A DNA stretch of 64,000 nucleotides from Chloroflexota bacterium (lineage in GTDB: Bacteria > Chloroflexota > Dehalococcoidia > UBA2979), in NCBI GenBank assembly GCA_947479915.1, contig CANKAU010000001.1, positions 21,957 through 85,956 of the forward strand. Direction: 5' to 3'. This document shows positions 7,059 to 64,000 of this stretch, in pieces. Below the pieces are notes generated by a model. It saw only the letters and a program-made list of their open reading frames with translations, ran no database searches and was not told the origin of the DNA. Within the stretch, counting starts at the first letter, position 1. Each line of letters starts with the position of its first letter. The position numbers and the translations under genes were made by a program.

Positions 7059-8663
7059 ATGATCTATGCGGAGAACGTCTCGCGCTCCTTCGGGGGCGAC
7101 CATGTGCTGCGTGACATCTCGTTCGCCATCGGCGACGGGGAGCGCGTCGGGCTGGTCGGCCCGAACGGTGCCGGCAAGTCCACCCTGATGCGCCTCATCG
7201 CCGGCGATGACGAGCCGGACGAGGGGCGCGCCGGGGTCCGCGGCGGCGACTTCGAGTTCCACCGCCAAGAGGCGAACCTCGACGAGCGCCACACGCTGGT
7301 CGAGGAGATGTGGACCGCGTTCCCCGAGGCGCGCGCGATCGAGCGCGAGCTGGAGGAGGTCGCGGCCGCGATCGAGAGCGGCGAGGGTGACCTCGACGAG
7401 CTGATCGAGCGCCAGACGCACCTCTTCGAGCGCTTCGAGGCGCTGGACGGCTATCGCATCGACCGCCGCATCGGCCGCGTCTTGGACGGCCTCGGCTTCG
7501 CGTTGGACGACCGCACGAAGCGCTGCGGCCAGTTCTCCGGTGGCTGGCGCATGCGCATCGGCCTCGCGAAGGTGCTGGTGCACCGCCCGCCGAACATCAT
7601 GCTCGACGAGCCGACCAACCACCTCGACGTCGCGGCACGCGACTGGCTCGCGCTCGAGCTCGCCGAGTACAAGGGCGCCGTGCTGCTGGTCACGCACGAC
7701 TCCGAGTTCCACGACGTGGTCGTGAACCGGATCCTCGAGCTGCGCGACGGCCGCGTGGACTCCTATAGCGGCAACTTCTCCGACTACCAGCGCCAGAAGG
7801 CCGAGCGCATCTCCCAGCAGCAGCGCGCCGCCGCGCGCCAGGAGCGCGAGATCACGAAGCAGACGCGCTTCATCGAGCGCTTCGGTGCGAAGGCGACGAA
7901 GGCGACCGCCGTGAAGTCCCGCGAGAAGCAGCTCGCGCGCATCGAGCGCGTCGAGGTGCAGCGCGACGAGCGCGAGGTCGGCTTCCAGTTGCAGGCCTCG
8001 GGCCGCACGGAGCTCGACGTGCTCAACGCCCAGCACATCGCCATGACCTTCGGCGACCACGTGGTGCTGATCGACGCGAACCTCGAGGTCGAGCGCGGCC
8101 AGAAGGTCGTACTCCTCGGCCCGAACGGCAGCGGGAAGTCCACGCTACTGAAGATCATCGCGGGGAAGCAGCAGCCGACGCAGGGCGTGGTGAACTGGTC
8201 ACAGCGCGTGCGCCTCGGCTACTACGACCAGCACCAGGACGAGGCGCTGCTGGCGGAGCGCACCATGCTGGACGAGGTGCGCGCGGTCGCGGGTGATCAG
8301 CCCGATGTCGCGCTGCGCTCGATCCTCGGACGCTTCCTGTTCCGCGGCGACGACGTGTTCAAGCCGATCTCGGTGCTGTCCGGTGGAGAGCGCAGCCGCG
8401 TCGCACTGGCCAAGTTCCTCATCGAGCCGTCCAACGTCCTGCTGCTGGACGAGCCGACCAACCACCTCGATGCTGCCACGCGCCGCAAGCTGGTCGAGGC
8501 GCTCGAGTCCTACGACGGCACGATCATCTGCGCCAGCCACGACCCCGCCATCCTCGAGCGGGTCGCCACGCGCGTGTACCAGATCGAGGGCGGCGAGTGC
8601 CGCGAGCTCGAGGAGTACCGCCGCGAGCCGGGCGAGAAGCGCAAGAAGGCCCGCGTCCAGTAG
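7059..8663 (+). CDS. ABC-F family ATPase (tandem ABC domains, no transmembrane domain)
   Basis: 534 aa. Two Walker A motifs (GPNGAGKSTL, GPNGSGKSTL), two ABC signatures (LSGGWRMR, LSGGERSR), and a charged inter-domain linker. Confidence 0.9.
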   Translation: MIYAENVSRSFGGDHVLRDISFAIGDGERVGLVGPNGAGKSTLMRLIAGDDEPDEGRAGVRGGDFEFHRQEANLDERHTLVEEMWTAFPEARAIERELEEVAAAIESGEGDLDELIERQTHLFERFEALDGYRIDRRIGRVLDGLGFALDDRTKRCGQFSGGWRMRIGLAKVLVHRPPNIMLDEPTNHLDVAARDWLALELAEYKGAVLLVTHDSEFHDVVVNRILELRDGRVDSYSGNFSDYQRQKAERISQQQRAAARQEREITKQTRFIERFGAKATKATAVKSREKQLARIERVEVQRDEREVGFQLQASGRTELDVLNAQHIAMTFGDHVVLIDANLEVERGQKVVLLGPNGSGKSTLLKIIAGKQQPTQGVVNWSQRVRLGYYDQHQDEALLAERTMLDEVRAVAGDQPDVALRSILGRFLFRGDDVFKPISVLSGGERSRVALAKFLIEPSNVLLLDEPTNHLDAATRRKLVEALESYDGTIICASHDPAILERVATRVYQIEGGECRELEEYRREPGEKRKKARVQ

Positions 8664-8853
8664 CCCCGGCCGTCGGCCCTCGACCGTCGAGGTGCGCGGA
8701 GACTCGTTCACGCTCGCACCGAGGCACCGTATCGGACGACCGAAGTCTGACAGCGCTGGCGCGTGCTTCGCGACGACGTGAGGGCGAGCGGGTGCCGCGA
8801 ACGCACCGGAATCGATGACTCGGGAGCGCGAAAGGCGGAGCCCTAGCATCCCA

Positions 8854-8878
8854 ACCCTCCCGCGCCGGGAGGGGCAGG
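8854..8878 (+). repeat. GC-rich hairpin motif (ccctccc-gcgcc-gggaggg + gcagg); second copy at 60441-60465 in opposite orientation
   Basis: accctcccgcgccgggaggggcagg here versus the reverse complement of 60441-60465, cccctcccgcgccgggaggggcagg (24/25 identical). It lies 5 nt downstream of the stop of the minus-strand gene at 8883-10184, so it may also act as a terminator. Confidence 0.6.
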
Positions 8879-8882
8879 AGGG

Positions 8883-10184
8883 CTACTCGACGACCTCGAT
8901 GGTCGCGTAGCCGCCGGGGGCGATCGTCTTCCACCACGTGAACGCTTCGTCGCTGGTCGCGAACCAGATATCGCGATGCTCCGCGCCCACACCGCCGCCG
9001 GTGTCCATACAGGTGAAGGTCGTCTCGCTGGGGTCGCCGATGACGCGGAACTTCTGCCCGAAGTTCACCCCCGCGCAGGACGCCGCGCCGCGGTGGACGA
9101 TCTGTCCGTTGCGCATGGGGCCGCAGAACCCGCCGCCGTCGCCCGCGCCGCCGCCGGAGGTCTGCGTGCAGTAGTAATAGGTGAGCGGCACGGTCAGGGC
9201 GCGGGCTGGCTTCACCACCGGGTTCGCCGGGGCAGGTGCCGGATCCGGCGCGCTGATGCTGCGCCGGATGAAGACGATCGAGGTCGGGCGGAGCGTCGAA
9301 CGGTTCAGCGTGTTCACCCACTCGGGCGCGCCCGGGATGTAGGTCAGCCAGCGCTGCGTGGACACGTCCAGAGCCATGACCACGTCCACGGCGAACGGCT
9401 GCGCCTTGATAAGTGTCGGCACGTCGTTCGTCCCGGCCACACCCAGAACGAGCCCATCGCGCGCCGGCGTCGCGAAGGCCCTCGCGGTGCCGGTCGCGTT
9501 CGGGACGGCGCCAGCCTGGACCAGCGGCGCGATGTCGGACGGCCCGAGAGTGCCCGCTCGACGAACCATGACCACCATGTCAGCACGGAGCGTCGTGTCG
9601 TCCAGCGTGTTCACGATCGAGGGCGCGCCCGGGATGTACGTGAGGTACTTCTGCGTCGCCGGGTCGATCGCGGAGATGCCGGCGACCGGGAACGTCTGGG
9701 CGGCGGCGACTGCCCGCGGCGACGAGGTATTGGCGACCCCGAAAGTGAGCCCGCCGGGCGGTGGAGCCTCGAACGGGCCGAGGGTCGTGGGCGCCGCCGG
9801 GGGTGGCGGGGGGGCTGGAGTGCTCGGCGTGGCGGGGATGGCGGGAGTGGCGGGGTCCGGGACTGAGGTCAGGAAGCGCGCCGCGACCCAGCCTGTGCCG
9901 GATGTCGTGCGGACCTGCTGCCAGTCGATGCCGTCCGCGTTCACGGTGCCCGGTACGAGGGTGACGACGATCCCGTCGCCGAGGCAGGTGATGAGGGCTC
10001 CGGAGAGGGCGGGAGCCTGCCGCATGTTCAGGCAATCGCCGTCGGCAGTGATCCTCGCGCTCGCCGCTTCTGCCGTGGAGGAGAAGGCGAGCGTTGCGAG
10101 GATGGCGAGCGCGGCAGCGACGGCAGGGAGAACCGGACGCGAACCAACGACCCGGAGGAGCGACGTATGTCGTCTCTTCGGCAT
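8883..10184 (-). CDS. Secreted cell-wall-associated protein: SH3b domain, Pro-rich linker, two copies of an unassigned ~66-aa module, C-terminal 3D (DPBB-fold) domain
   Basis: 433 aa. Signal peptide ...AFSSTAEAASA. SH3b-like CLNMRQAPALSGALITCLGDG...WQQVRTTSGTGWVAARFL. Internal repeat (see findings). C-terminus YYYCTQTSGG...FTCMDTGGGVGAEHRDIWF is typical of 3D/MltA-like domains. Confidence 0.8.
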   Translation of the reverse strand: MPKRRHTSLLRVVGSRPVLPAVAAALAILATLAFSSTAEAASARITADGDCLNMRQAPALSGALITCLGDGIVVTLVPGTVNADGIDWQQVRTTSGTGWVAARFLTSVPDPATPAIPATPSTPAPPPPPAAPTTLGPFEAPPPGGLTFGVANTSSPRAVAAAQTFPVAGISAIDPATQKYLTYIPGAPSIVNTLDDTTLRADMVVMVRRAGTLGPSDIAPLVQAGAVPNATGTARAFATPARDGLVLGVAGTNDVPTLIKAQPFAVDVVMALDVSTQRWLTYIPGAPEWVNTLNRSTLRPTSIVFIRRSISAPDPAPAPANPVVKPARALTVPLTYYYCTQTSGGGAGDGGGFCGPMRNGQIVHRGAASCAGVNFGQKFRVIGDPSETTFTCMDTGGGVGAEHRDIWFATSDEAFTWWKTIAPGGYATIEVVE

Positions 10185-55179: not shown

Positions 55180-56357
55180 CCGATTTCCGTTGGCTGACCG
55201 CAGGCGAGTCGCACGGCAAGGGCCTCGCGGCGATCGTCGAGGGCGTCCCTGCCGGGCTCACCATGAGCGAGGCGGTCATCGCGTCCGACCTTCGGCGGCG
55301 TCAGGGCGGCTACGGTCGCGGCCGTCGCCAGCAGATCGAGACGGACCACGCTGAATTGCTGTCGGGCGTGCGCCATGGCAAGACCATGGGTTCGCCGATC
55401 GCGATGACGATCGTGAACAAGGACTTCGAGAACCAGGGCTGGCGCGTCCGCATGGCCACGGACCCCGTCGAGGAAGAAGTGGAGCGCGTCACGCTGCTCC
55501 GTCCCGGCCACGCGGACCTCGCCGGCACACAGAAGTACGGCTTTGATGACGTCCGTCCGATCCTCGAACGATCGAGCGCGCGCGAAACGACCGCGCGGGT
55601 CGCGGTGGGCGCGATCGCCCGCGCGCTGATCGGCGCGATCGGGATCAGCGTGCACTCGCACACGCTGTCCGTCGGGCCCGTACACGCCGAGGTGCCGGAT
55701 CGCATCGACTGGGACGCGGTGGACGCCTCGCCCATGCGCGTCGCCGACAAGTCCGTCGAGCAAGCGATGATCGATGAGGTCGACAAGACCCGCGAAGCGC
55801 TGGACACCGTGGGTGGGGTGTTCGAGGTGCGCGCCTCCGGCGTGCCGTTCGGCCTCGGCAGCCACGTGCACTGGGATCGCAAGCTCGATGGTCGGCTGGC
55901 GCAGGCGATCATGTCGATCAACGCCGTGAAGGCGTGCGAGATCGGCGAGGGCGTCGCCGGTGCCGGGTCACGCGGGTCACAGGTGCAGGACATCATCCTG
56001 CCGTCGTCCGCATGGGAGCGCCGCCAGTGGGAGCGCGCCACCAACCGCGCCGGCGGCCTCGAGGGTGGCATGACGAACGGCGAAGACATCGTGGTGCGCG
56101 GCTTCCTCAAGCCGATCTCCACCGTCCCGCAGCGCCTGCCCACCGCCGACCTGCTGACGGGCGAGGAGACGCAGTCGTTCTACGAGCGCTCTGACGTCGC
56201 GGTCGTCCCGGCGGGCGGGGTCGTCGGTGAGGCGATGGTCGCCATCGTGCTCGCCGGCGCCGTCCTCGAGAAGTTCGGCGGCGACAGCATCGACGAGCTG
56301 CGCCGCAACTTCGAGGCGTTCCAGGCCACCGTGGGTCCGCGGGAGCCGCGCTCGTGA
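55176..56357 (+). CDS. aroC: Chorismate synthase
   Basis: 393 aa. FRWLTAGESHGKGL, RRQGGYGRGRRQ, LLRPGHADL and ERSSARETTARVA. Confidence 0.95.
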   Translation: MTDFRWLTAGESHGKGLAAIVEGVPAGLTMSEAVIASDLRRRQGGYGRGRRQQIETDHAELLSGVRHGKTMGSPIAMTIVNKDFENQGWRVRMATDPVEEEVERVTLLRPGHADLAGTQKYGFDDVRPILERSSARETTARVAVGAIARALIGAIGISVHSHTLSVGPVHAEVPDRIDWDAVDASPMRVADKSVEQAMIDEVDKTREALDTVGGVFEVRASGVPFGLGSHVHWDRKLDGRLAQAIMSINAVKACEIGEGVAGAGSRGSQVQDIILPSSAWERRQWERATNRAGGLEGGMTNGEDIVVRGFLKPISTVPQRLPTADLLTGEETQSFYERSDVAVVPAGGVVGEAMVAIVLAGAVLEKFGGDSIDELRRNFEAFQATVGPREPRS

Positions 56358-58066
56358 GTGACGCCGCGAAGTCCGCACCGCCGCAGCAGATCGTCCTCGT
56401 CGGGCTTTCCGGCGTGGGCAAGACGACCATCGGACAGGCGCTCGCGGAGCGCCTCGGCTGGCCGTTTCTCGACACCGACGACCTCGTCCTGAAGCGCGAG
56501 GGGCGTACTGCCGCTGCGCTGATCATCGAGCGCGGCGAGCCGGAGTTCCGGCGCGTCGAGGAGATGATCGTCGCCGAGGCGGCGAAGCAGACCCCGGCGG
56601 TCATTGCGACCGGCGGCGGCGTGATCCTCTCCCCGGGCAACCGCCGCGCGCTTGGTGAGCGCGGATTCATCGTGTACCTCGACGCCACGCCGAGCGAGAT
56701 CGCGCGCCGCCTGCCGAAGGACGGTCAGCCCGTGCGCCCGCTGGTGGACGGTGACCTTGAACGACGCCTGCGCGACCTCGATGGCGACCGTCGCCAGTAC
56801 TACAACCACGCCGACCTCTGGGTGCCGGTGATGGGCAGCGCCGCCGACCTCGACCAGACGCGCGATCGCGCCGTGGCGCGCATCCTGGGCGCGTGGGCGA
56901 CGGACGCGGCCGAGCTGATGGCGAAGCCGCGCCGCCTCGAACGCCTCGGCAGCGCCGAGCCCGCCCGCGGTCCAGCCGCGCTCGTGGACACCGGCGTCGA
57001 GCGCTACCCGATCTGGGTCGCCCCCGGGGAGCTGCGACGCCTGCCCGACCGCCTGCAGCAGATCGGCCTCGGCGGGCGCCGCGTGTTCCTGGTCTCCGAC
57101 ACCAACGTCATGGAGGCCCACGGCCGTACCGTCGCCGAGGTCCTCGACACGGCGGGCATCGCCGGCGCGTCCTACGTCATCCCCGCGGGCGAGGCGTCGA
57201 AGACGCAGCGCATGGCGGCGGAGCTGTACCGCTGGCTCGCTGCCGAGCGCGCCGAGCGCCGTGACGTGATCCTGGCGCTGGGCGGCGGCGTGGTCGGCGA
57301 CCTCGCGGGCTATGTCGCTGCGACCTACCTCCGAGGCATGCCGTTCGTGCAGCTGCCCACGTCCGTCCTCGCGATGAACGACGCCGCGATCGGCGGCAAG
57401 GTCGCCGTCGATCTGCCCGAGGGCAAGAACCTCGTCGGTGCGTTCCACCAGCCGGCGGCCGTGCTGTCGGACGTGAGCGTCCTGGGCACGCTCCCGCGTC
57501 GCATGCACATCGAGGGCTTCGCCGAGGTCATCAAGCACGCGTTCATCCTCGACCCCGGCCTCCTCGACACGCTCGAGGCGAACGCGCGCAGTCTTGCGTC
57601 AGGCACCGCGGACCCGGAGCTGATGGCGCATGTGATCGGGCGCTCGTCGCACCTCAAAGGCCTGATCGTCTCCAGCGACCCGCAGGAGCGCGGCATCCGT
57701 GCGATCCTCAACTACGGCCACACGATTGGCCACGCGATCGAGCAGTCGACCGGGTACACCGAGTACATGCACGGCGAGGCCGTCGCCATCGGCATGATGG
57801 GGGCGGGTCGTATCGCCGTTGAGCTCGGGCTCCTCGATGCCGCCGTCGTCGACCGACAGTCCGATCTGCTGCGCTCGTTTGGCCTGCCGCTGGTGGCGCC
57901 GGGCATGAACGTTCGCGCCGTCCTCGAAGCGATGATGCGCGACAAGAAGGTCGAGCAGGGCAAGCTGCGCTTCGTGCTGCTCGAGGATGTCGGCCGCGCG
58001 ATCGTGCGTGGCGACGTGCCCGAGGATCTCGTCTCGCGCACCGTGCAACAGCTCGCGCGCGGCTAG
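56354..58066 (+). CDS. aroKB: Bifunctional shikimate kinase / 3-dehydroquinate synthase (AroK-AroB fusion)
   Basis: 570 aa. N-terminal AroK (VLVGLSGVGKTTIGQALA...FLDTDD, ATGGGV). C-terminal AroB (ALGGGVVGDLAGYVAA, LPTSVLAMNDAAIGGK, NYGHTIGHAIE...HGEAVAIGM). Confidence 0.9.
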   Translation: MSDAAKSAPPQQIVLVGLSGVGKTTIGQALAERLGWPFLDTDDLVLKREGRTAAALIIERGEPEFRRVEEMIVAEAAKQTPAVIATGGGVILSPGNRRALGERGFIVYLDATPSEIARRLPKDGQPVRPLVDGDLERRLRDLDGDRRQYYNHADLWVPVMGSAADLDQTRDRAVARILGAWATDAAELMAKPRRLERLGSAEPARGPAALVDTGVERYPIWVAPGELRRLPDRLQQIGLGGRRVFLVSDTNVMEAHGRTVAEVLDTAGIAGASYVIPAGEASKTQRMAAELYRWLAAERAERRDVILALGGGVVGDLAGYVAATYLRGMPFVQLPTSVLAMNDAAIGGKVAVDLPEGKNLVGAFHQPAAVLSDVSVLGTLPRRMHIEGFAEVIKHAFILDPGLLDTLEANARSLASGTADPELMAHVIGRSSHLKGLIVSSDPQERGIRAILNYGHTIGHAIEQSTGYTEYMHGEAVAIGMMGAGRIAVELGLLDAAVVDRQSDLLRSFGLPLVAPGMNVRAVLEAMMRDKKVEQGKLRFVLLEDVGRAIVRGDVPEDLVSRTVQQLARG

Positions 58067-60465: not shown

Positions 60466-60536
60466 ATGAGAAGCGAGGGCTTCGCCCTCGCGCTCCCCCG
60501 GGACAGCGCGGCGCCCTGCGCGCGCCTGGGGAAGAT

Positions 60537-60628
60537 CCTCACCCTGCCCTCTCCCCAAGCGGGGAGAGGGTTCTGAATCGCGTTCCGGTGCCCTCTCCCG
60601 GTTTTGGGAGAGGGCAGGGGTGAGGGCC
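60537..60628. repeat. Nested palindromic REP/MITE-like element (two hairpins bracketed by ~19-nt inverted repeats)
   Basis: Outer inverted repeat: cctcaccctgccctctcc (60537-60554) versus ggagagggcaggggtgagg (60608-60626). Inner hairpins: ccctctcccc-aagc-ggggagaggg (60547-60570) and tgccctctccc-ggtttt-gggagagggca (60589-60616). Confidence 0.65.
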
Positions 60629-61066: not shown

Positions 61067-61942
61067 GTGGACAGCCTGCTCGCCGCGTGGGAGCCCGCCG
61101 CCGACCCGGCGCCGGGCCAGCGCACGTTCGAGGTGGTGCGGGACGCGCTGCTCGCCTCGCCGGCGCTGTCCGCGCGCAACGTCCGCGTCTACCTGCACGG
61201 CGCCCACGCCGGTGACACCGTGACCCGCGCCGATGAGCCCGTGGACGTGGTCATCGAGAGCGGGACGTCCTACCTCGCCGGGTTCACGCCGCACGTCAGC
61301 GACCTCGCCCGACAGAGCATCGAGGGCTCGCTGGGCGCGGGCTCGTGGGACTACTGGGAGTACCGCGGCGAGGTGCAGTCGGCGCTGCGCGAGGCGTTCC
61401 CCGGCGCGGTGCGCGACGGCGAGCACGCGCTGCGCGTGATGCACACCTCGCTGTCGGTGTCGCATCCCACCCCGCCCGCGCAGGTGATCGTGGCGCTGCC
61501 GTACCGGCACTACAGCGGGCTGGGCGGCTGGACCGCCGGCATCACCTACTTCACGCGCAGCTTCGACCAGGTGGTGCAGTACCCGCGGCTGCATCGCGAC
61601 AACGGCGCGCTGAAGGACCGCGAGACGGAGGGCCGCTACAAGGCGACGGTGCGCATGGCGAAGCAGATGCGCGACTACCTGCAGGACGTGCTCGCGCTGG
61701 AGCGCGGCCGCGTGCCGTCGTACTTCCTCGAATGCCTGCTGTGGAACGTCCCGGCGAGGAAGTACGCGGATCCGGATCCCGGCCCCCGCATGCACGAGGT
61801 GGTGGGCTACCTGGAGGGCGCGTACCTCCCGGCCTTCGAGCAGCAGCACATGATCGAAGCGCTCTTCGGCGGCTCCGCCTCCCAGTGGACCACCTCGGAC
61901 GCCCGCCTGTTCATCGACGCGGCGTCGCGGTGGTTGGGGTAG
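61067..61942 (+). CDS. Nucleotidyltransferase-fold protein resembling SMODS/CD-NTase-like enzymes, catalytic motif apparently degenerate
   Basis: 291 aa. GTG start with GGGAG 5 nt upstream. VYLHGAHAGDTVTRADEPVDVVIE sits in the position of the hG[GS]...DxD motif. The later blocks YPRLHRDNGALKDRETEGRYKATVRMAKQMRD and PSYFLECLLWNVP are typical of this family. Confidence 0.6.
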   Translation: MDSLLAAWEPAADPAPGQRTFEVVRDALLASPALSARNVRVYLHGAHAGDTVTRADEPVDVVIESGTSYLAGFTPHVSDLARQSIEGSLGAGSWDYWEYRGEVQSALREAFPGAVRDGEHALRVMHTSLSVSHPTPPAQVIVALPYRHYSGLGGWTAGITYFTRSFDQVVQYPRLHRDNGALKDRETEGRYKATVRMAKQMRDYLQDVLALERGRVPSYFLECLLWNVPARKYADPDPGPRMHEVVGYLEGAYLPAFEQQHMIEALFGGSASQWTTSDARLFIDAASRWLG

Positions 61943-61945
61943 GGG

Positions 61946-62119
61946 CTACCGACCGCGCTGGCGGTACAAGAAGGCAGACAGCGAGAGAATCCCCCCAACA
62001 CCCGGAAGGGCGACGACACCGAGGTAGCCGCAGCCGATCAAAATGACGACCACGACGGCGGTGCCCGACAGCAAGTCGGGCATCACGGTCTCGCTCGTCG
62101 CCTTCCAGGTAGGAAGCAT
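61946..62119 (-). CDS. Possible small hydrophobic (2-TM hairpin) protein downstream of the TIR-like gene
   Basis: 57 aa from ATG 62119, 8 nt after the upstream stop: MLPTWKATSETVMPDLLSGTAVVVVILIGCGYLGVVALPGVGGILSLSAFLYRQRGR. No clear SD. Coding status is uncertain. Confidence 0.3.
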   Translation of the reverse strand: MLPTWKATSETVMPDLLSGTAVVVVILIGCGYLGVVALPGVGGILSLSAFLYRQRGR

Positions 62120-62126
62120 CAGGTCG

Positions 62127-63257
62127 TTAGTCCGCCGCCGAGACCATGCGGATCGCACCGAGTTGGATCAGTTCACGGAGCAGTTGCATCGCCGTCGCAT
62201 CAAGGTGGTCGCGATCGAACTCGATCCAACCGAGGTCGCTAAAGTCGCTCGGGAAGCTCACGCCTCGTTCCTTGAAGATCACAACCTTGCGCCCATAGAG
62301 CAGAGAAGCCGCCCCCAGTTCGTAGATCACATTCTGGCTGGGGCGGTACACGGTCTGCCCGCTCTCGTCCTTGAACTCTTCGTCAGCGGTGAAGATGAAG
62401 ATGCCGGCCGAGCAGGCCTGCATCACATCGGCCACCTTCTGTGAAATCGGACGGCCCGCGTTCGGTTCTTGCACGGCAACGATGAACGGAACGCGCCACT
62501 CGTTGAGGATCTTCTGCAACTGGTCGAGAGGCTCGTGCCGCTTCCCGTGCGCCACGAACATCTGCACCGGCGGGGCGCTGGTGCGCTTCGGGCTCGGAGT
62601 TGCGTCAGCATCCGGACGCCTCTCCACGCCTCCCCCTGCAAACAGCGATGCAAGATCGACCGGTACGGCTTCCTCGGTGGTTCCCTCGCCTCCCTGCTCA
62701 GCGGGTTCTTCCGCCGGCTGGGTCGCCCCCCCGGTCGTGATGATGTAGTTCGACCCACGGATCTCCTGGAGGTACCCGACGTCCCTCGCGGTGGACGTGA
62801 AGAGGGTCGCGACCTCTGCGGACCACGACGGGTCGATGTTGAAGGGCGCGCGCTCGATCGTGTTCTTGAGGAACTGCGGCTCGGGAAGCTTGCTGTTCGC
62901 GAAGTGGTTCAGCAACTGCTCGAAGATCGGTACGTTCCGCATCGAGCGCCGGCGCGCCTCGATCGCCTCCACCTCGTTTCGGGGGGCCGTCAGCGACCGA
63001 CCGAGTTCCGTGAGGGAAATCTCCTCGGAGTTGTAGTTCCCCTCGGTGAGACCGTAGCGGTACGAGGACATGATGCTGTCGCGGAAACCGCTGCTGTTCG
63101 GACTCCAACCCGTCGCGTTCGCGAGCAACAGGCGATTCATGGGCCGTCCAGCGTTGGTGTCGCGAATCGCCTGAGCGATCGTGGAAGCCTCTGCCAGGGT
63201 CTTCGGGGGATGCGGGCGTGCCGGCCCGCGCGCCGGCCTCGAAGGTTCGTTGGTCAC
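62127..63257 (-). CDS. TIR-like (CAP12/PycTIR-type, COG4271-like) domain protein with an unassigned twin wHTH-like N-terminal region
   Basis: GTG 63257 is preferred (AAGGAG at 63266-63271, 8-nt spacer). The track start at 63266 overlaps the SD. C-terminal blocks are MFVAHGKRHE, AGIFIFTADEE, SQNVIYELGAASLLYGRKVVIF and FPSDFSDLGWIEFD. GC is about 10 points below the flanks. Confidence 0.75.
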   Translation of the reverse strand: MTNEPSRPARGPARPHPPKTLAEASTIAQAIRDTNAGRPMNRLLLANATGWSPNSSGFRDSIMSSYRYGLTEGNYNSEEISLTELGRSLTAPRNEVEAIEARRRSMRNVPIFEQLLNHFANSKLPEPQFLKNTIERAPFNIDPSWSAEVATLFTSTARDVGYLQEIRGSNYIITTGGATQPAEEPAEQGGEGTTEEAVPVDLASLFAGGGVERRPDADATPSPKRTSAPPVQMFVAHGKRHEPLDQLQKILNEWRVPFIVAVQEPNAGRPISQKVADVMQACSAGIFIFTADEEFKDESGQTVYRPSQNVIYELGAASLLYGRKVVIFKERGVSFPSDFSDLGWIEFDRDHLDATAMQLLRELIQLGAIRMVSAAD

Positions 63258-63368
63258 TGAATACACTCCTTACATCTGACTGTACGTATCCCTCTACAGA
63301 CCGTAGCGAGTCAAATCACGTGATGTTCGGAACCGAATGACCTTCTGACCTCTAACCCCATCTCCCGC

Positions 63369-63374
63369 TAAACT
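63369..63374 (+). promoter_or_regulatory. -10 box TAAACT 6 nt upstream of the pheS ATG (possible leaderless transcript), with cTGACC about 18 nt upstream
   Basis: ttCTGACCtctaaccccatctcccgcTAAACTccccgcATG. No SD. Confidence 0.4.
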
Positions 63375-63380
63375 CCCCGC

Positions 63381-64000
63381 ATGACCTCGACGACTCTCGA
63401 CACGGTGGCGGCGGTGGAGGCGGAGGCGCGCGCGCGGCTCGCCGAGGCGGCTGACGAGGCCGCGCTGGAGGCGTGGCGGCTCGGCGTCCTCGGACGGTCG
63501 GGGTCGCTGACCGGCGTGCTGCGAGGCCTGGGCGCACTGCCCGAGGACGAGCGCCGCGCCGTGGGCGCTGCCGCGAACATCGCGAAGCAGGCGCTGGAGG
63601 CGGCCCTGGACGCCCGGCGCGAGGAGCTGCGTCGCGCGGCCCTCGGCAGCATGGAGGCGCTGGACGTCACGCTGCCCGGCCGCCCGGTGCGCCGCGGCGG
63701 GCTGCACCCCGTCACGCAGGTGCGCCGCGAGATCCTCGACATCTTCGCGCGCCTCGGCTTCGCGACGGTCGAGGGCCCCGAGGTGGAGCTGGACGAGTAC
63801 AACTTCGGCCGGCTGCGCATCCCGGAGCACCACCCCGCGCGCGACATGTGGGACACGTTCTGGTTCGAGCGCGAGCAGGCCACCGACCCGGCCATGCTCC
63901 TGCGAACGCACACCAGCCCCATGCAGATCCGGTTCATCGAGCAGCACGAGCCGCCGATCCGCATCGCCGTGCCGGGCCGCTGCTACCGCTACGAGGCCAC
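63381..64000 (+). CDS. pheS: Phenylalanine--tRNA ligase alpha subunit (3' end runs off the window)
   Basis: Absent from the track because it is truncated. My translation from ATG 63381: MTSTTLDTVAAVEAEARARLAEA...LHPVTQVRREILDIFARLGFATVEGPEVELDEYNFGRLRIPEHHPARDMWDTFW...LLRTHTSPMQIR...PGRCYRYEA. Confidence 0.9.
   Translation, partial: MTSTTLDTVAAVEAEARARLAEAADEAALEAWRLGVLGRSGSLTGVLRGLGALPEDERRAVGAAANIAKQALEAALDARREELRRAALGSMEALDVTLPGRPVRRGGLHPVTQVRREILDIFARLGFATVEGPEVELDEYNFGRLRIPEHHPARDMWDTFWFEREQATDPAMLLRTHTSPMQIRFIEQHEPPIRIAVPGRCYRYEA

What the first reader, a model, noticed from the sequence alone, without database searches (positions are those of the whole stretch)
61946..63380. Low-GC islet upstream of pheS carrying a CAP12/PycTIR-type TIR-like gene with no cyclase or known sensor domain: candidate stand-alone defence module
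The minus-strand ORF at 62127-63257 ends in a ~140-aa domain: VQMFVAHGKRHEPLDQLQKILNEWRVPFIVAVQEPNAGRPISQKVADVMQACSAGIFIFTADEEF...RPSQNVIYELGAASLLYGRKVVIFKERGVSFPSDFSDLGWIEFD. This follows, block for block, the signature I know for the TIR-like nucleotide-binding domain of CBASS Cap12 and Pycsar PycTIR effectors (Pfam PF10137 / COG4271). The matching blocks are hFIVHG, a hydrophobic strand ending in DD/DE, QNVIFELGyF with the catalytic-type Glu, and PSDLxG. In those systems the domain is an NAD-degrading suicide effector triggered by a cyclic nucleotide made by a neighbouring cyclase. Here I find no co-oriented cyclase and no SAVED, STING or cNMP-binding domain. The gene sits with a tiny hydrophobic ORF in about 1.4 kb of lower-GC DNA. 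My 60-nt hand counts give mostly 52-68% GC in the coding part and 45-52% in the upstream spacer, against 70-77% in the flanking housekeeping genes. That contrast suggests horizontally acquired cargo inserted between a resident gene and pheS.
Basis: partly seen in the sequence, partly recalled or inferred. Interest (0 to 1): 0.8.

Follow-up and report, generated by a model that had tools for sequence, protein, structure and literature searches.

The report
Stand-alone TIR gene in an acquired islet

Summary
The minus-strand ORF 62127-63257 (376 aa) ends in a PF10137 TIR domain (E 9e-18). The gene and a conserved 57-aa two-helix membrane ORF lie in a 1406-bp segment (61943-63348). This is the lowest-GC stretch of the window (62.7% vs 70.2%, z = -4.8; GC3 81% vs 91-97%). 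Two close relatives lack the segment: one has different cargo there, the other only 313 bp.

It is vertically inherited. It lacks two of its three catalytic acidic residues. It is never found beside the 80 TIR homologues examined. A CBASS pairing is therefore unlikely.

The N-terminal 170 aa fold confidently into two winged-helix-like units, with no Pfam or significant PDB match. The architecture is widespread (about 1,300 clusters at 50% identity, bacteria and archaea) and has no conserved partner gene.

Best reading: a self-contained sensor-plus-TIR NADase defence protein. Enzyme activity, trigger and defence role are inferred, not shown. It is a new variant of a known kind, of moderate interest.

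The parts
61943..63348 (.). Variable islet (1406 bp) between the stop codon of the CD-NTase-like gene and 32 nt upstream of pheS.
   Evidence: Homology to L093 (about 94% nt) and L091 (about 87-89% nt) stops at 61939-61942 and resumes at 63349. L093 has a different 1360-bp cargo there and L091 only 313 bp. It is the lowest-GC 1.4-kb stretch in the window, z = -4.8. No flanking direct or inverted repeats were found.
62127..63257 (-). Gene for a 376-aa winged-helix-like + TIR (PF10137) protein. An alternative GTG start lies at 63266.
   Evidence: ORF list. SD AAGGAG lies 8 nt before GTG 63257. More than 1,400 full-length homologues were found, 49-62% identical among the best 120. The AF2 model has pLDDT 86.8.
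62742..63215 (-). N-terminal module (aa 15-172): two winged-helix-like units. This is the presumed sensor or assembly domain.
   Evidence: AF2 pLDDT is 93-98. There is no Pfam or PADLOC match. The best Foldseek PDB E-value is 1.5e-2, and the weak hits are mostly winged-helix proteins: SelB, FokI/N.BspD6I recognition domain, MarR/IclR, ScpB. The domain occurs in 1,337 clusters at 50% identity.
62571..62741 (-). Acidic, variable, disordered linker (aa 173-229).
   Evidence: pLDDT is below 50-60. The columns are unconserved. Median net charge is -6.5.
62154..62570 (-). TIR domain (aa 230-368), Cap12/PycTIR type.
   Evidence: PF10137 E 9.2e-18. Foldseek top hits are TIR-STING 9lmq and 7un8, E 4e-5 to 5e-4, then SARM1 and DNPH1. 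The profile hits Cap12 in PDB sequences. PADLOC PDC-S35 E 1.7e-18 on this half only.
62319..62321 (-). Codon of the presumed catalytic Glu (E313 in 376-aa numbering; NVIYELG).
   Evidence: It aligns with SfSTING E84 and is invariant in 54 homologues.
62244..62246 (-). Codon of D338 (FPSDF), the equivalent of SfSTING D110, which completes the partner TIR's active site.
   Evidence: Alignment, role in SfSTING, invariant in the family.
61946..62119 (-). Small ORF, 57 aa, with two hydrophobic helices. It starts 7 nt after the TIR stop codon.
   Evidence: It is conserved downstream of TIR homologues in L003 (Gemmatimonadetes), L004 and L045 (Dehalococcoidia), with 13 invariant positions. It is absent from most other loci. 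It has no family match.
63258..63348 (-). Islet-specific 5' region of the TIR gene (about 50% GC), presumably its promoter.
   Evidence: It lies inside the variable segment. GC is 50%. No sigma-70 consensus match was found.
61067..61942 (+). Adjacent context, not part of the islet: a resident CD-NTase (CdnE)-like gene, convergent with the islet operon, with a degenerate active site.
   Evidence: PADLOC Cyclase E 1.5e-51. PDB 6E0K E 2e-29. GS/DxD/D are replaced by GA/PxD/Q. It keeps its position in L091 and L093 without the TIR gene. Its dS equals that of the flanks and dN/dS is 0.25-0.32.

Best explanation
Window 61943-63348 is a horizontally acquired 1.4-kb islet. It sits in a variable slot between pheS and a vertically inherited, probably inactive CD-NTase-like gene.

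The islet encodes a two-gene minus-strand operon. The first gene gives a 376-aa protein built of three parts:
- a tandem winged-helix-like N-terminal module;
- an acidic flexible linker;
- a Cap12/PycTIR-type TIR domain with an intact NADase signature (N309, E313, D338).

The second gene gives a 57-aa two-helix membrane protein, which is present only in a subclade of the family.

The most likely working model is a self-contained, cyclase-independent sensor-effector. The N-terminal module recognises an infection cue, either a nucleic acid or a phage protein. That drives self-association, which brings TIR domains together so that D338 of one completes the E313 site of another, as in TIR-STING filaments. 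NAD+ is then hydrolysed and the infected cell stops growing.

Shown here: domain identity, conservation of the catalytic residues, stand-alone distribution, the presence/absence polymorphism and the compositional deviation of the islet.

Inferred: NADase activity, activation by assembly, the nature of the trigger, and the defence role.
For: **TIR identity and fold.**

**Active site.** The equivalents of SfSTING N80, E84 and D110 are invariant in 54 homologues.

**N-terminal module.** It is confidently folded (pLDDT 93-98), conserved, and resembles winged-helix proteins.

**No partner gene.**
- There is no conserved neighbour in 80 loci from bacteria and archaea.
- No homologue of the window's cyclase was found in any of them.

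**Islet.**
- It is absent from L091 and replaced by other cargo in L093, a relative with about 94% nt identity.
- It is the lowest-GC stretch of the window and has low GC3.
- In the NJ tree the window's protein groups with Dehalococcoidia, Gemmatimonadetes and Longimicrobiales sequences, not with the two relatives that hold a homologue in the same slot.

**Neighbourhoods.** Some homologues lie next to MADS, AriA/GajA/PtuA-type ATPases, a type IIG R-M enzyme, DUF3800, NYN, integrases and transposases.

**Candidate list.** The C-terminal half matches PADLOC's phage-defence candidate PDC-S35.
Against: - There is no experimental evidence for NADase activity or phage protection in this family.
- Neighbourhoods are heterogeneous, and many immediate neighbours are housekeeping genes.
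- The excess of PADLOC hits near the gene over genes 5.5-8 kb away is modest and was not formally tested: 176 families in 140 proteins against 80 in 113.
- The N-terminal module is not basic (median net charge -2), so nucleic-acid binding is not supported by charge.
- The family is absent from the phage and plasmid collections.
- Some family members have TIR-like domains without the Glu. This shows the architecture can exist without catalysis.
Confidence: 0.55

Rival explanations
1. A split, convergently arranged CBASS. The adjacent CdnE-like protein (61067-61942) makes a cyclic oligonucleotide that activates the TIR protein. The slot next to the cyclase would then hold exchangeable effectors: TIR plus the small membrane protein here, and a TM/TPR-like protein in L093.
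For: - The two genes are immediate neighbours: their stop codons are 3 nt apart.
- The neighbour is a clear CD-NTase homologue.
- PF10137 TIRs are known CBASS and Pycsar effectors (Pfam description).
- The cargo next to the cyclase differs between strains, as CBASS effectors do.
Against: - The cyclase lacks canonical catalytic residues: GS>GA, DxD>PxD, and the third D>Q (E in its relatives). A 29%-identical homologue, P0127, keeps all of them.
- L091 keeps the cyclase with no effector beside it.
- None of the 80 TIR-homologue loci contains a homologue of this cyclase.
- L052 and L059 carry a TIR homologue in the same slot without any cyclase.
- The TIR protein has no SAVED, STING or cNMP-binding domain.
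- The genes are convergent and differ in composition: GC3 97% against 81%.
Confidence: 0.07
2. Not an immune protein. One version: a ligand-responsive regulator, in which the TIR-like Rossmannoid domain binds a nucleotide and the winged-helix module binds DNA. Another version: a nucleotide N-glycosidase of the DNPH1/MilB/BcmB kind acting in nucleotide metabolism.
For: - The N-terminal fold is the one used by many transcription factors.
- Foldseek also returns DNPH1 and the CMP N-glycosidase BcmB, with TM 0.6-0.65 on the target.
- Many homologues sit among housekeeping genes.
- Glu-less variants of the architecture exist.
- Sources name the family only 'predicted nucleotide-binding protein'.
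Against: - The family-specific Pfam model and the best structural and sequence matches are the NADase TIRs of Cap12.
- The catalytic Glu and the trans-acting Asp are invariant in the main family.
- The distribution is patchy and crosses phyla. Strains about 94% identical differ in presence, and the composition is foreign. This is atypical of a core regulator.
- The N-terminal module is not basic.
- No conserved operator was found upstream.
Confidence: 0.2
3. A two-gene addiction or toxin module. The TIR protein and the 57-aa membrane protein would form a toxin-antitoxin-like or toxin-plus-membrane-effector pair that maintains the islet.
For: The small ORF follows the TIR gene after 7 nt. It is conserved with the TIR gene in four loci from two phyla.
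Against: Most TIR homologues lack the small ORF, including L001 and L002 at 58-59% identity. It is therefore accessory. It matches no known antitoxin or toxin family.
Confidence: 0.1

Closest known systems
Cap12 / TIR-STING of CBASS (SfSTING, PDB 7UN8; 9LMQ)
   Same: It has the same TIR subfamily (PF10137). It is the best structural and sequence match in the PDB. The equivalents of N80, E84 and D110 are conserved. The likely activation logic is also shared: TIR-TIR assembly completes the active site.
   Different: There is no STING domain. The sensor is N-terminal and winged-helix-like, whereas STING is C-terminal. No active CD-NTase partner co-occurs.
PycTIR of Pycsar, and TIR-SAVED of CBASS / type III CRISPR
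   Same: Both use a PF10137-type or related TIR as an NAD-depleting effector (Pfam description; own knowledge).
   Different: Those effectors are paired with a cyclase and carry a cyclic-nucleotide sensor (a cNMP-sensing region or SAVED). Neither is present here.
PADLOC phage-defence candidate PDC-S35 (untested candidate)
   Same: Five PDC-S35 models match the C-terminal half, aa 222-370, with E from 1.7e-18 to 9e-12. It is a candidate centred on the same TIR type.
   Different: Only the TIR half of the models aligns (model positions about 107-254 of 264). The 170-aa N-terminal module matches no PADLOC model. PDC-S35 itself has no demonstrated function as far as I know.
Single-protein TIR defences such as SpbK of ICEBs1, and TIR-bearing Avs/NLR-like proteins (own knowledge; the PMC11984713 abstract is listed)
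   Same: The concept is the same: one polypeptide with a sensing part and a TIR NADase, with no second-messenger step.
   Different: The TIR subfamilies and sensor domains differ. No sequence relationship was detected here.
ThsB of Thoeris
   Same: It is a bacterial TIR involved in phage defence.
   Different: ThsB belongs to PF08937 and makes a signal for a ThsA-type effector. No such effector is a conserved neighbour here. A systematic screen for TIR signalling systems explicitly set aside stand-alone TIR proteins like this one as likely NAD+ depleters.

Membership tests
PF10137 CAP12/PycTIR-type TIR domain | Score above the Pfam gathering threshold | tested here: met
   64.8 bits against a cut-off of 24.7, E 9.2e-18, covering 117 of 119 model positions.
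PF10137 CAP12/PycTIR-type TIR domain | TIR (flavodoxin-like) fold | tested here: met
   In the AF2 model the TIR half has pLDDT of about 90. The Foldseek top hits are TIR-STING, then SARM1 and other TIRs.
PF10137 CAP12/PycTIR-type TIR domain | Catalytic Glu in helix alpha-C, plus the Asn and the trans-acting Asp of SfSTING | tested here: met
   E313, N309 and D338 align with E84, N80 and D110 and are invariant in the family.
PF10137 CAP12/PycTIR-type TIR domain | NAD+ glycohydrolase activity | not testable with these tools
   This needs a biochemical assay.
CBASS (cyclase + Cap12-like effector) | Catalytically competent CD-NTase in the same operon | tested here: not met
   A CD-NTase homologue is adjacent, but it is convergent. 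Its catalytic residues GS/DxD/D are replaced by GA/PxD/Q.
CBASS (cyclase + Cap12-like effector) | Effector carries a cyclic-oligonucleotide sensor (STING, SAVED or similar) | tested here: not met
   The N-terminal module has no Pfam or PADLOC match and folds as winged helices.
CBASS (cyclase + Cap12-like effector) | Cyclase and effector co-occur across genomes | tested here: not met
   0 of 80 TIR loci hold a homologue of the cyclase. L091 and L093 keep the cyclase without the TIR gene. The tblastn search used one query, so very distant CD-NTases could have been missed. However, no conserved neighbour of any kind was found.
Pycsar | Adjacent pyrimidine cyclase (PycC) partnering the TIR effector | tested here: not met
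   The one adjacent cyclase-type gene is a CD-NTase homologue, not an adenylate/guanylate-cyclase-type PycC. No recurrent partner gene was found across 80 loci.
Thoeris | ThsB-type TIR with a neighbouring ThsA-type effector (SIR2, SLOG, Macro or TM) | tested here: not met
   The TIR is PF10137, not PF08937. There is no conserved effector neighbour. The 57-aa membrane ORF occurs in only 4 loci and has no ligand-binding domain.
PADLOC PDC-S35 candidate | Full-length match to the candidate's models | tested here: inconclusive
   Strong matches (E 1.7e-18) cover only the C-terminal TIR part of the models. The N-terminal parts do not align.

The most novel reading that the evidence does not exclude
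The tandem winged-helix module would be a new kind of direct infection sensor, for a nucleic acid or a phage protein. It would license TIR assembly without any second messenger. That would define a one-protein TIR immune system spread across many uncultured bacterial and archaeal lineages: about 1,300 clusters at 50% identity, including Bathyarchaeia, Nitrososphaerota and Thermoplasmata.

In this lineage the gene sits in a recombination hotspot (pheS|AsnC) that has taken up distinct alleles of the same family at least three times, beside a domesticated, catalytically dead CD-NTase.
Probability: 0.3. Interest if true: 0.65.

Novelty: new variant of a known kind. Interest (0 to 1): 0.45.

Why it matters
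TIR NADases are central effectors of immunity in bacteria, plants and animals. The characterised PF10137 TIRs all wait for a cyclic nucleotide made by a partner cyclase.

Here the same TIR type is fused to an undescribed, highly conserved winged-helix module and has no partner gene. If the family is immune, it would show how this TIR subfamily can be triggered directly. It would also extend TIR-based defence to many archaeal and uncultured bacterial groups.

The locus offers a natural presence/absence comparison between near-identical strains. It also shows a CD-NTase homologue that has lost its catalytic residues yet remains under purifying selection.

The practical lesson for annotation is that a TIR gene lying next to a CD-NTase-like gene should not be called CBASS on adjacency alone.

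Tried and rejected
- **Insertion scars.** I looked for direct or inverted repeats at the islet borders. Only short chance-level matches turned up, none at 61943/63348. No tRNA gene lies nearby.
- **Known RNAs.** None in or around the islet. The only hits are sub-threshold matches to a hairpin repeat at 60536-60626, outside the islet.
- **Promoter and terminator consensus.** No sigma-70-like site. One weak terminator-like site lies inside the small ORF.
- **N-terminal module.** No match in Pfam at E up to 10, in PADLOC, in PDB sequences by phmmer with the whole protein or by the whole-protein family profile, or significantly in PDB or viral fold libraries. It is therefore named by fold only.
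- **Upstream palindrome.** The 10-bp palindrome ATCACGTGAT (63315-63324) was considered as an operator. It is not conserved upstream of homologues and is near chance expectation.
- **Phage or plasmid carriage.** No full-length homologue was found. Four plasmids gave only distant TIR-domain hits.
- **Other effectors on the same sensor.** I asked whether the N-terminal module is a promiscuous sensor fused to many effectors. Among the 150 best representatives it is joined only to TIR-like domains (PF10137, Glu-less variants, DUF7226), and one member has a weak AAA_assoc_C match; the remaining members look like fragments.
- **First tree discarded.** A first NJ tree used wrongly picked ORFs for seven loci. 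It was redone with BLAST-selected ORFs.
Full report
**1. What is there**

The region 61.9-63.4 kb holds a minus-strand ORF, 62127-63266 (379 aa from the first GTG).
AAGGAG lies 8 nt upstream of it.
- Homologues conserve the segment 'RPHPP...' ahead of the internal Met that automatic callers chose for a 337-aa product.
- Seven nucleotides after the stop codon, a 57-aa ORF (61946-62119) with two hydrophobic helices follows on the same strand.
- The stop codon of this small ORF lies 3 nt from the stop codon of a convergent + strand ORF (61067-61942). pheS starts at 63381.

**2. The TIR call is right**

- Pfam gives PF10137 (CAP12/Pycsar effector TIR) at E 9.2e-18, 64.8 bits against a cut-off of 24.7, covering nearly the whole model.
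- An AlphaFold model built on 54 homologues has mean pLDDT 86.8.
- Its best PDB matches are the TIR domains of TIR-STING (9LMQ, 7UN8; E 4e-5 to 5e-4). SARM1, other TIRs and the related DNPH1/BcmB glycosidases follow.
- A profile of the family finds only Cap12 among PDB sequences. It aligns family RPSQNVIYELG and FPSDF with SfSTING KPRDNVVFEFG and LPTDL.
- Family N309, E313 and D338 therefore correspond to N80, the catalytic E84, and D110, which reaches into the partner TIR's active site (PMC9402430).
- All three are invariant in 54 homologues.

**3. The protein is not sensor-less**

- Residues 15-172 are as conserved as the TIR domain. They fold with pLDDT 93-98 into two helix-helix-helix-hairpin units.
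- No Pfam, PADLOC, PDB-sequence or significant fold match exists.
- The weak fold hits (E >= 1.5e-2) are mostly winged-helix proteins: the SelB RNA-binding domain, the FokI/N.BspD6I recognition domains (TM on query 0.42-0.49), MarR/IclR regulators and ScpB.
- I therefore call it a tandem winged-helix-like module of unknown ligand.
- It is not basic (median net charge -2), so nucleic-acid binding is a guess.
- An acidic, variable, disordered linker (aa 173-229) joins the two halves.

**4. The family**

- The word-index search found 1,494 proteins. The best 120 are nearly all full length at 49-62% identity.
- An exhaustive search with the N-terminal module alone found 1,337 clusters at 50% identity.
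- Eighty genomic loci were fetched. They come from Dehalococcoidia and other Chloroflexota, Gemmatimonadota, Acidobacteriota, Actinomycetota, Alphaproteobacteria, Patescibacteria, and the archaeal groups Bathyarchaeia, Nitrososphaerota and Thermoplasmata.
- Among the best 150 representatives the module is joined only to TIR-like domains: PF10137, a few variants lacking the Glu, and a second TIR-like type (DUF7226). One member has a weak AAA_assoc_C match, and the remaining members look like fragments.
- No neighbouring gene recurs beyond within-clade synteny.
- The small membrane ORF is found only with the closest clade. There it is conserved at protein level in L003, L004 and L045.
- The gene is therefore a stand-alone unit, with an optional small partner.

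**5.

ORF 61067-61942 is a CD-NTase of the CdnE type:
- PADLOC 'Cyclase' E 1.5e-51;
- PDB 6E0K E 2e-29 and EfCdnE/ClCdnE about 1e-18;
- NCBIfam DS2_2 anti-phage nucleotidyltransferase E 1e-37, below its cut-off. That model derives from the cGAS-like gene of the three-gene system DS-2;
- Pfam CD_NTase_C.

So 'no cyclase' is not literally true. Five observations argue that it is not the TIR's partner.

(a) The active site is degenerate. GS becomes GA. The DxD motif becomes PxD. The third Asp is Q here and in P0121, and E in P0122-P0125. The 29%-identical P0127 and the solved CdnEs keep GS, DxD and D.

(b) The gene is vertically inherited with its flanks.
- It keeps its position after AsnC and MoeA in L093 (GCA_037141655.1, Chloroflexota) and in L091 (GCA_009692765.1, Dehalococcoidia).
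- Its dS equals that of MoeA and AsnC: 0.12 against 0.13-0.16 for L093, and 0.30 against 0.35-0.51 for L091.
- Its dN/dS is 0.25-0.32.

(c) Those two relatives have no TIR gene.

(d) None of the 80 TIR loci holds a homologue of the cyclase. L052 and L059 carry a TIR homologue in the same pheS|AsnC slot with no cyclase.

(e) The two genes are convergent and differ in composition: GC3 97% against 81%.

**6. The islet**

- DNA homology with L093 (about 94%) and L091 (about 87%) ends at the cyclase stop codon (61939-61942) and resumes at 63349, 32 nt before pheS.
- The intervening 1406 bp is replaced in L093 by 1360 bp encoding a TM/TPR-like protein. In L091 it is only 313 bp.
- The islet has 62.7% GC against 70.2% for the window. 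It is the lowest 1.4-kb stretch in 64 kb (z = -4.8). Its two genes have GC3 81-83% against 91-97% for their neighbours.
- No flanking repeats, tRNA gene, integrase or known RNA marks the borders.
- In a neighbour-joining tree the window's protein groups with sequences from other Dehalococcoidia, Gemmatimonadetes and Longimicrobiales (54-60% identity).
- The two homologues in the same slot are more distant from it (50% and 40%) and from each other (37%). MoeA next door is 62-64% identical to its counterparts in L052 and L059.
- The slot is therefore a variable locus. It has either captured different alleles of this family more than once, or has held a fast-evolving copy that was lost in some lineages. 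The tree is only NJ on 354 columns, and the L059 sequence is spliced across a frameshift, so I do not decide between the two.

**7. Is it defence?**

This is inference. The arguments for it:
- the effector type;
- the intact catalytic signature;
- the strain-level presence/absence;
- the foreign composition;
- the cross-phylum tree;
- the match of the TIR half to PADLOC's candidate PDC-S35;
- a minority of homologues lying next to MADS genes, AriA/GajA/PtuA/Old-type ATPases, a type IIG R-M enzyme, DUF3800, NYN, integrases and transposases.

As a rough control, genes 5.5-8 kb away gave fewer PADLOC family hits: 80 families in 113 proteins, against 176 in 140. This comparison is crude. Many neighbours are plain housekeeping genes, such as Cpn60, ThiC and EF-G. 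A recent systematic screen for TIR signalling systems explicitly discarded stand-alone TIR proteins. I found no paper on this architecture.

**8. Mechanism proposed**

By analogy with TIR-STING, filament formation lets D110 of one TIR complete the E84 site of another. I propose that the winged-helix module binds an infection-specific ligand and multimerises. The flexible linker then lets the TIR domains pack, and NAD+ is hydrolysed.
- Shown: the architecture and the conserved residues.
- Inferred: everything dynamic.
- The 57-aa membrane protein is accessory. Its role (membrane anchoring, a second effector, or a modulator) is open.

**9. Verdict**

It is correct on the TIR type, on the islet and on the stand-alone nature of the gene. 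It is wrong that no cyclase-like gene is present, and it overlooked the N-terminal module.
- This is a new variant of a known kind: a PF10137 TIR effector on an undescribed sensor module, without a cyclase.
- Interest is moderate. The family is large, uncharacterised and easy to test, but single-protein TIR defences are an established concept.

Noticed in passing
window 61067-61942 (+): A CdnE-like CD-NTase homologue whose catalytic GS/DxD/D residues are replaced by GA/PxD/Q. It is vertically inherited next to AsnC and MoeA in at least three related genomes and is under purifying selection (dN/dS 0.25-0.32). It may be a domesticated or inactive CD-NTase with an unknown role.
   Followed up: partly
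window 60535-60628: A 90-nt near-perfect hairpin repeat (predicted dG -73 kcal/mol) between MoeA and AsnC. Copies at about 75% identity lie in L091 (three places) and L093. It gives a spurious sub-threshold Rfam mir-2545 hit. It looks like a REP/MITE-type element of this lineage.
   Followed up: partly
L093 3716-5074; L091 8886-9186; L052 5916-7443: The slot between pheS and AsnC holds different cargo in each relative. L093 has a TM plus TPR-like protein. L091 has almost nothing. L052 has ArsR, AHSA1-like and RibD_C-like genes plus a TIR homologue. This marks a gene-exchange hotspot amid housekeeping genes.
   Followed up: partly
L059 7941-9055: The TIR homologue in the same slot of this Dehalococcoidaceae MAG is split into two overlapping frames (7941-8438 and 8348-9055). 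This is either a frameshifted pseudogene or an assembly error.
   Followed up: no
proteins P0210, P0224, P0234 and P0216, P0218, P0248, P0250: The same N-terminal module also occurs with TIR-like domains that lack the catalytic Glu. It also occurs with a second TIR-like domain type (Pfam DUF7226, motif NVLFELG).
   Followed up: partly
window 63315-63324: A perfect 10-bp palindrome, ATCACGTGAT, lies 58-67 nt upstream of the TIR start codon, inside the islet-specific region. It is not conserved upstream of homologues and is near chance expectation.
   Followed up: yes
window 61940-61948: The stop codons of the convergent cyclase-like gene and the small ORF are only 3 nt apart, with no terminator between them. 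Transcripts of the two units could therefore overlap.
   Followed up: no
L001, L002, L045, about 30-70 nt upstream of the TIR start: Three of the closest homologues share an upstream motif: GGTATATTGTCTG(C/A)CAATA in L001 and L002, and a more diverged form (GGTATCCTCTCTGCCAATA) in L045. In L001 and L002 it contains the inverted repeat TATTG-N5-CAATA, which could be a conserved promoter or operator. It is not evident in the window's own upstream region.
   Followed up: no
window 56354-58066 (+): Shikimate kinase and 3-dehydroquinate synthase are fused in one 570-aa ORF. The fusion is conserved in relative L091 (573 aa).
   Followed up: no
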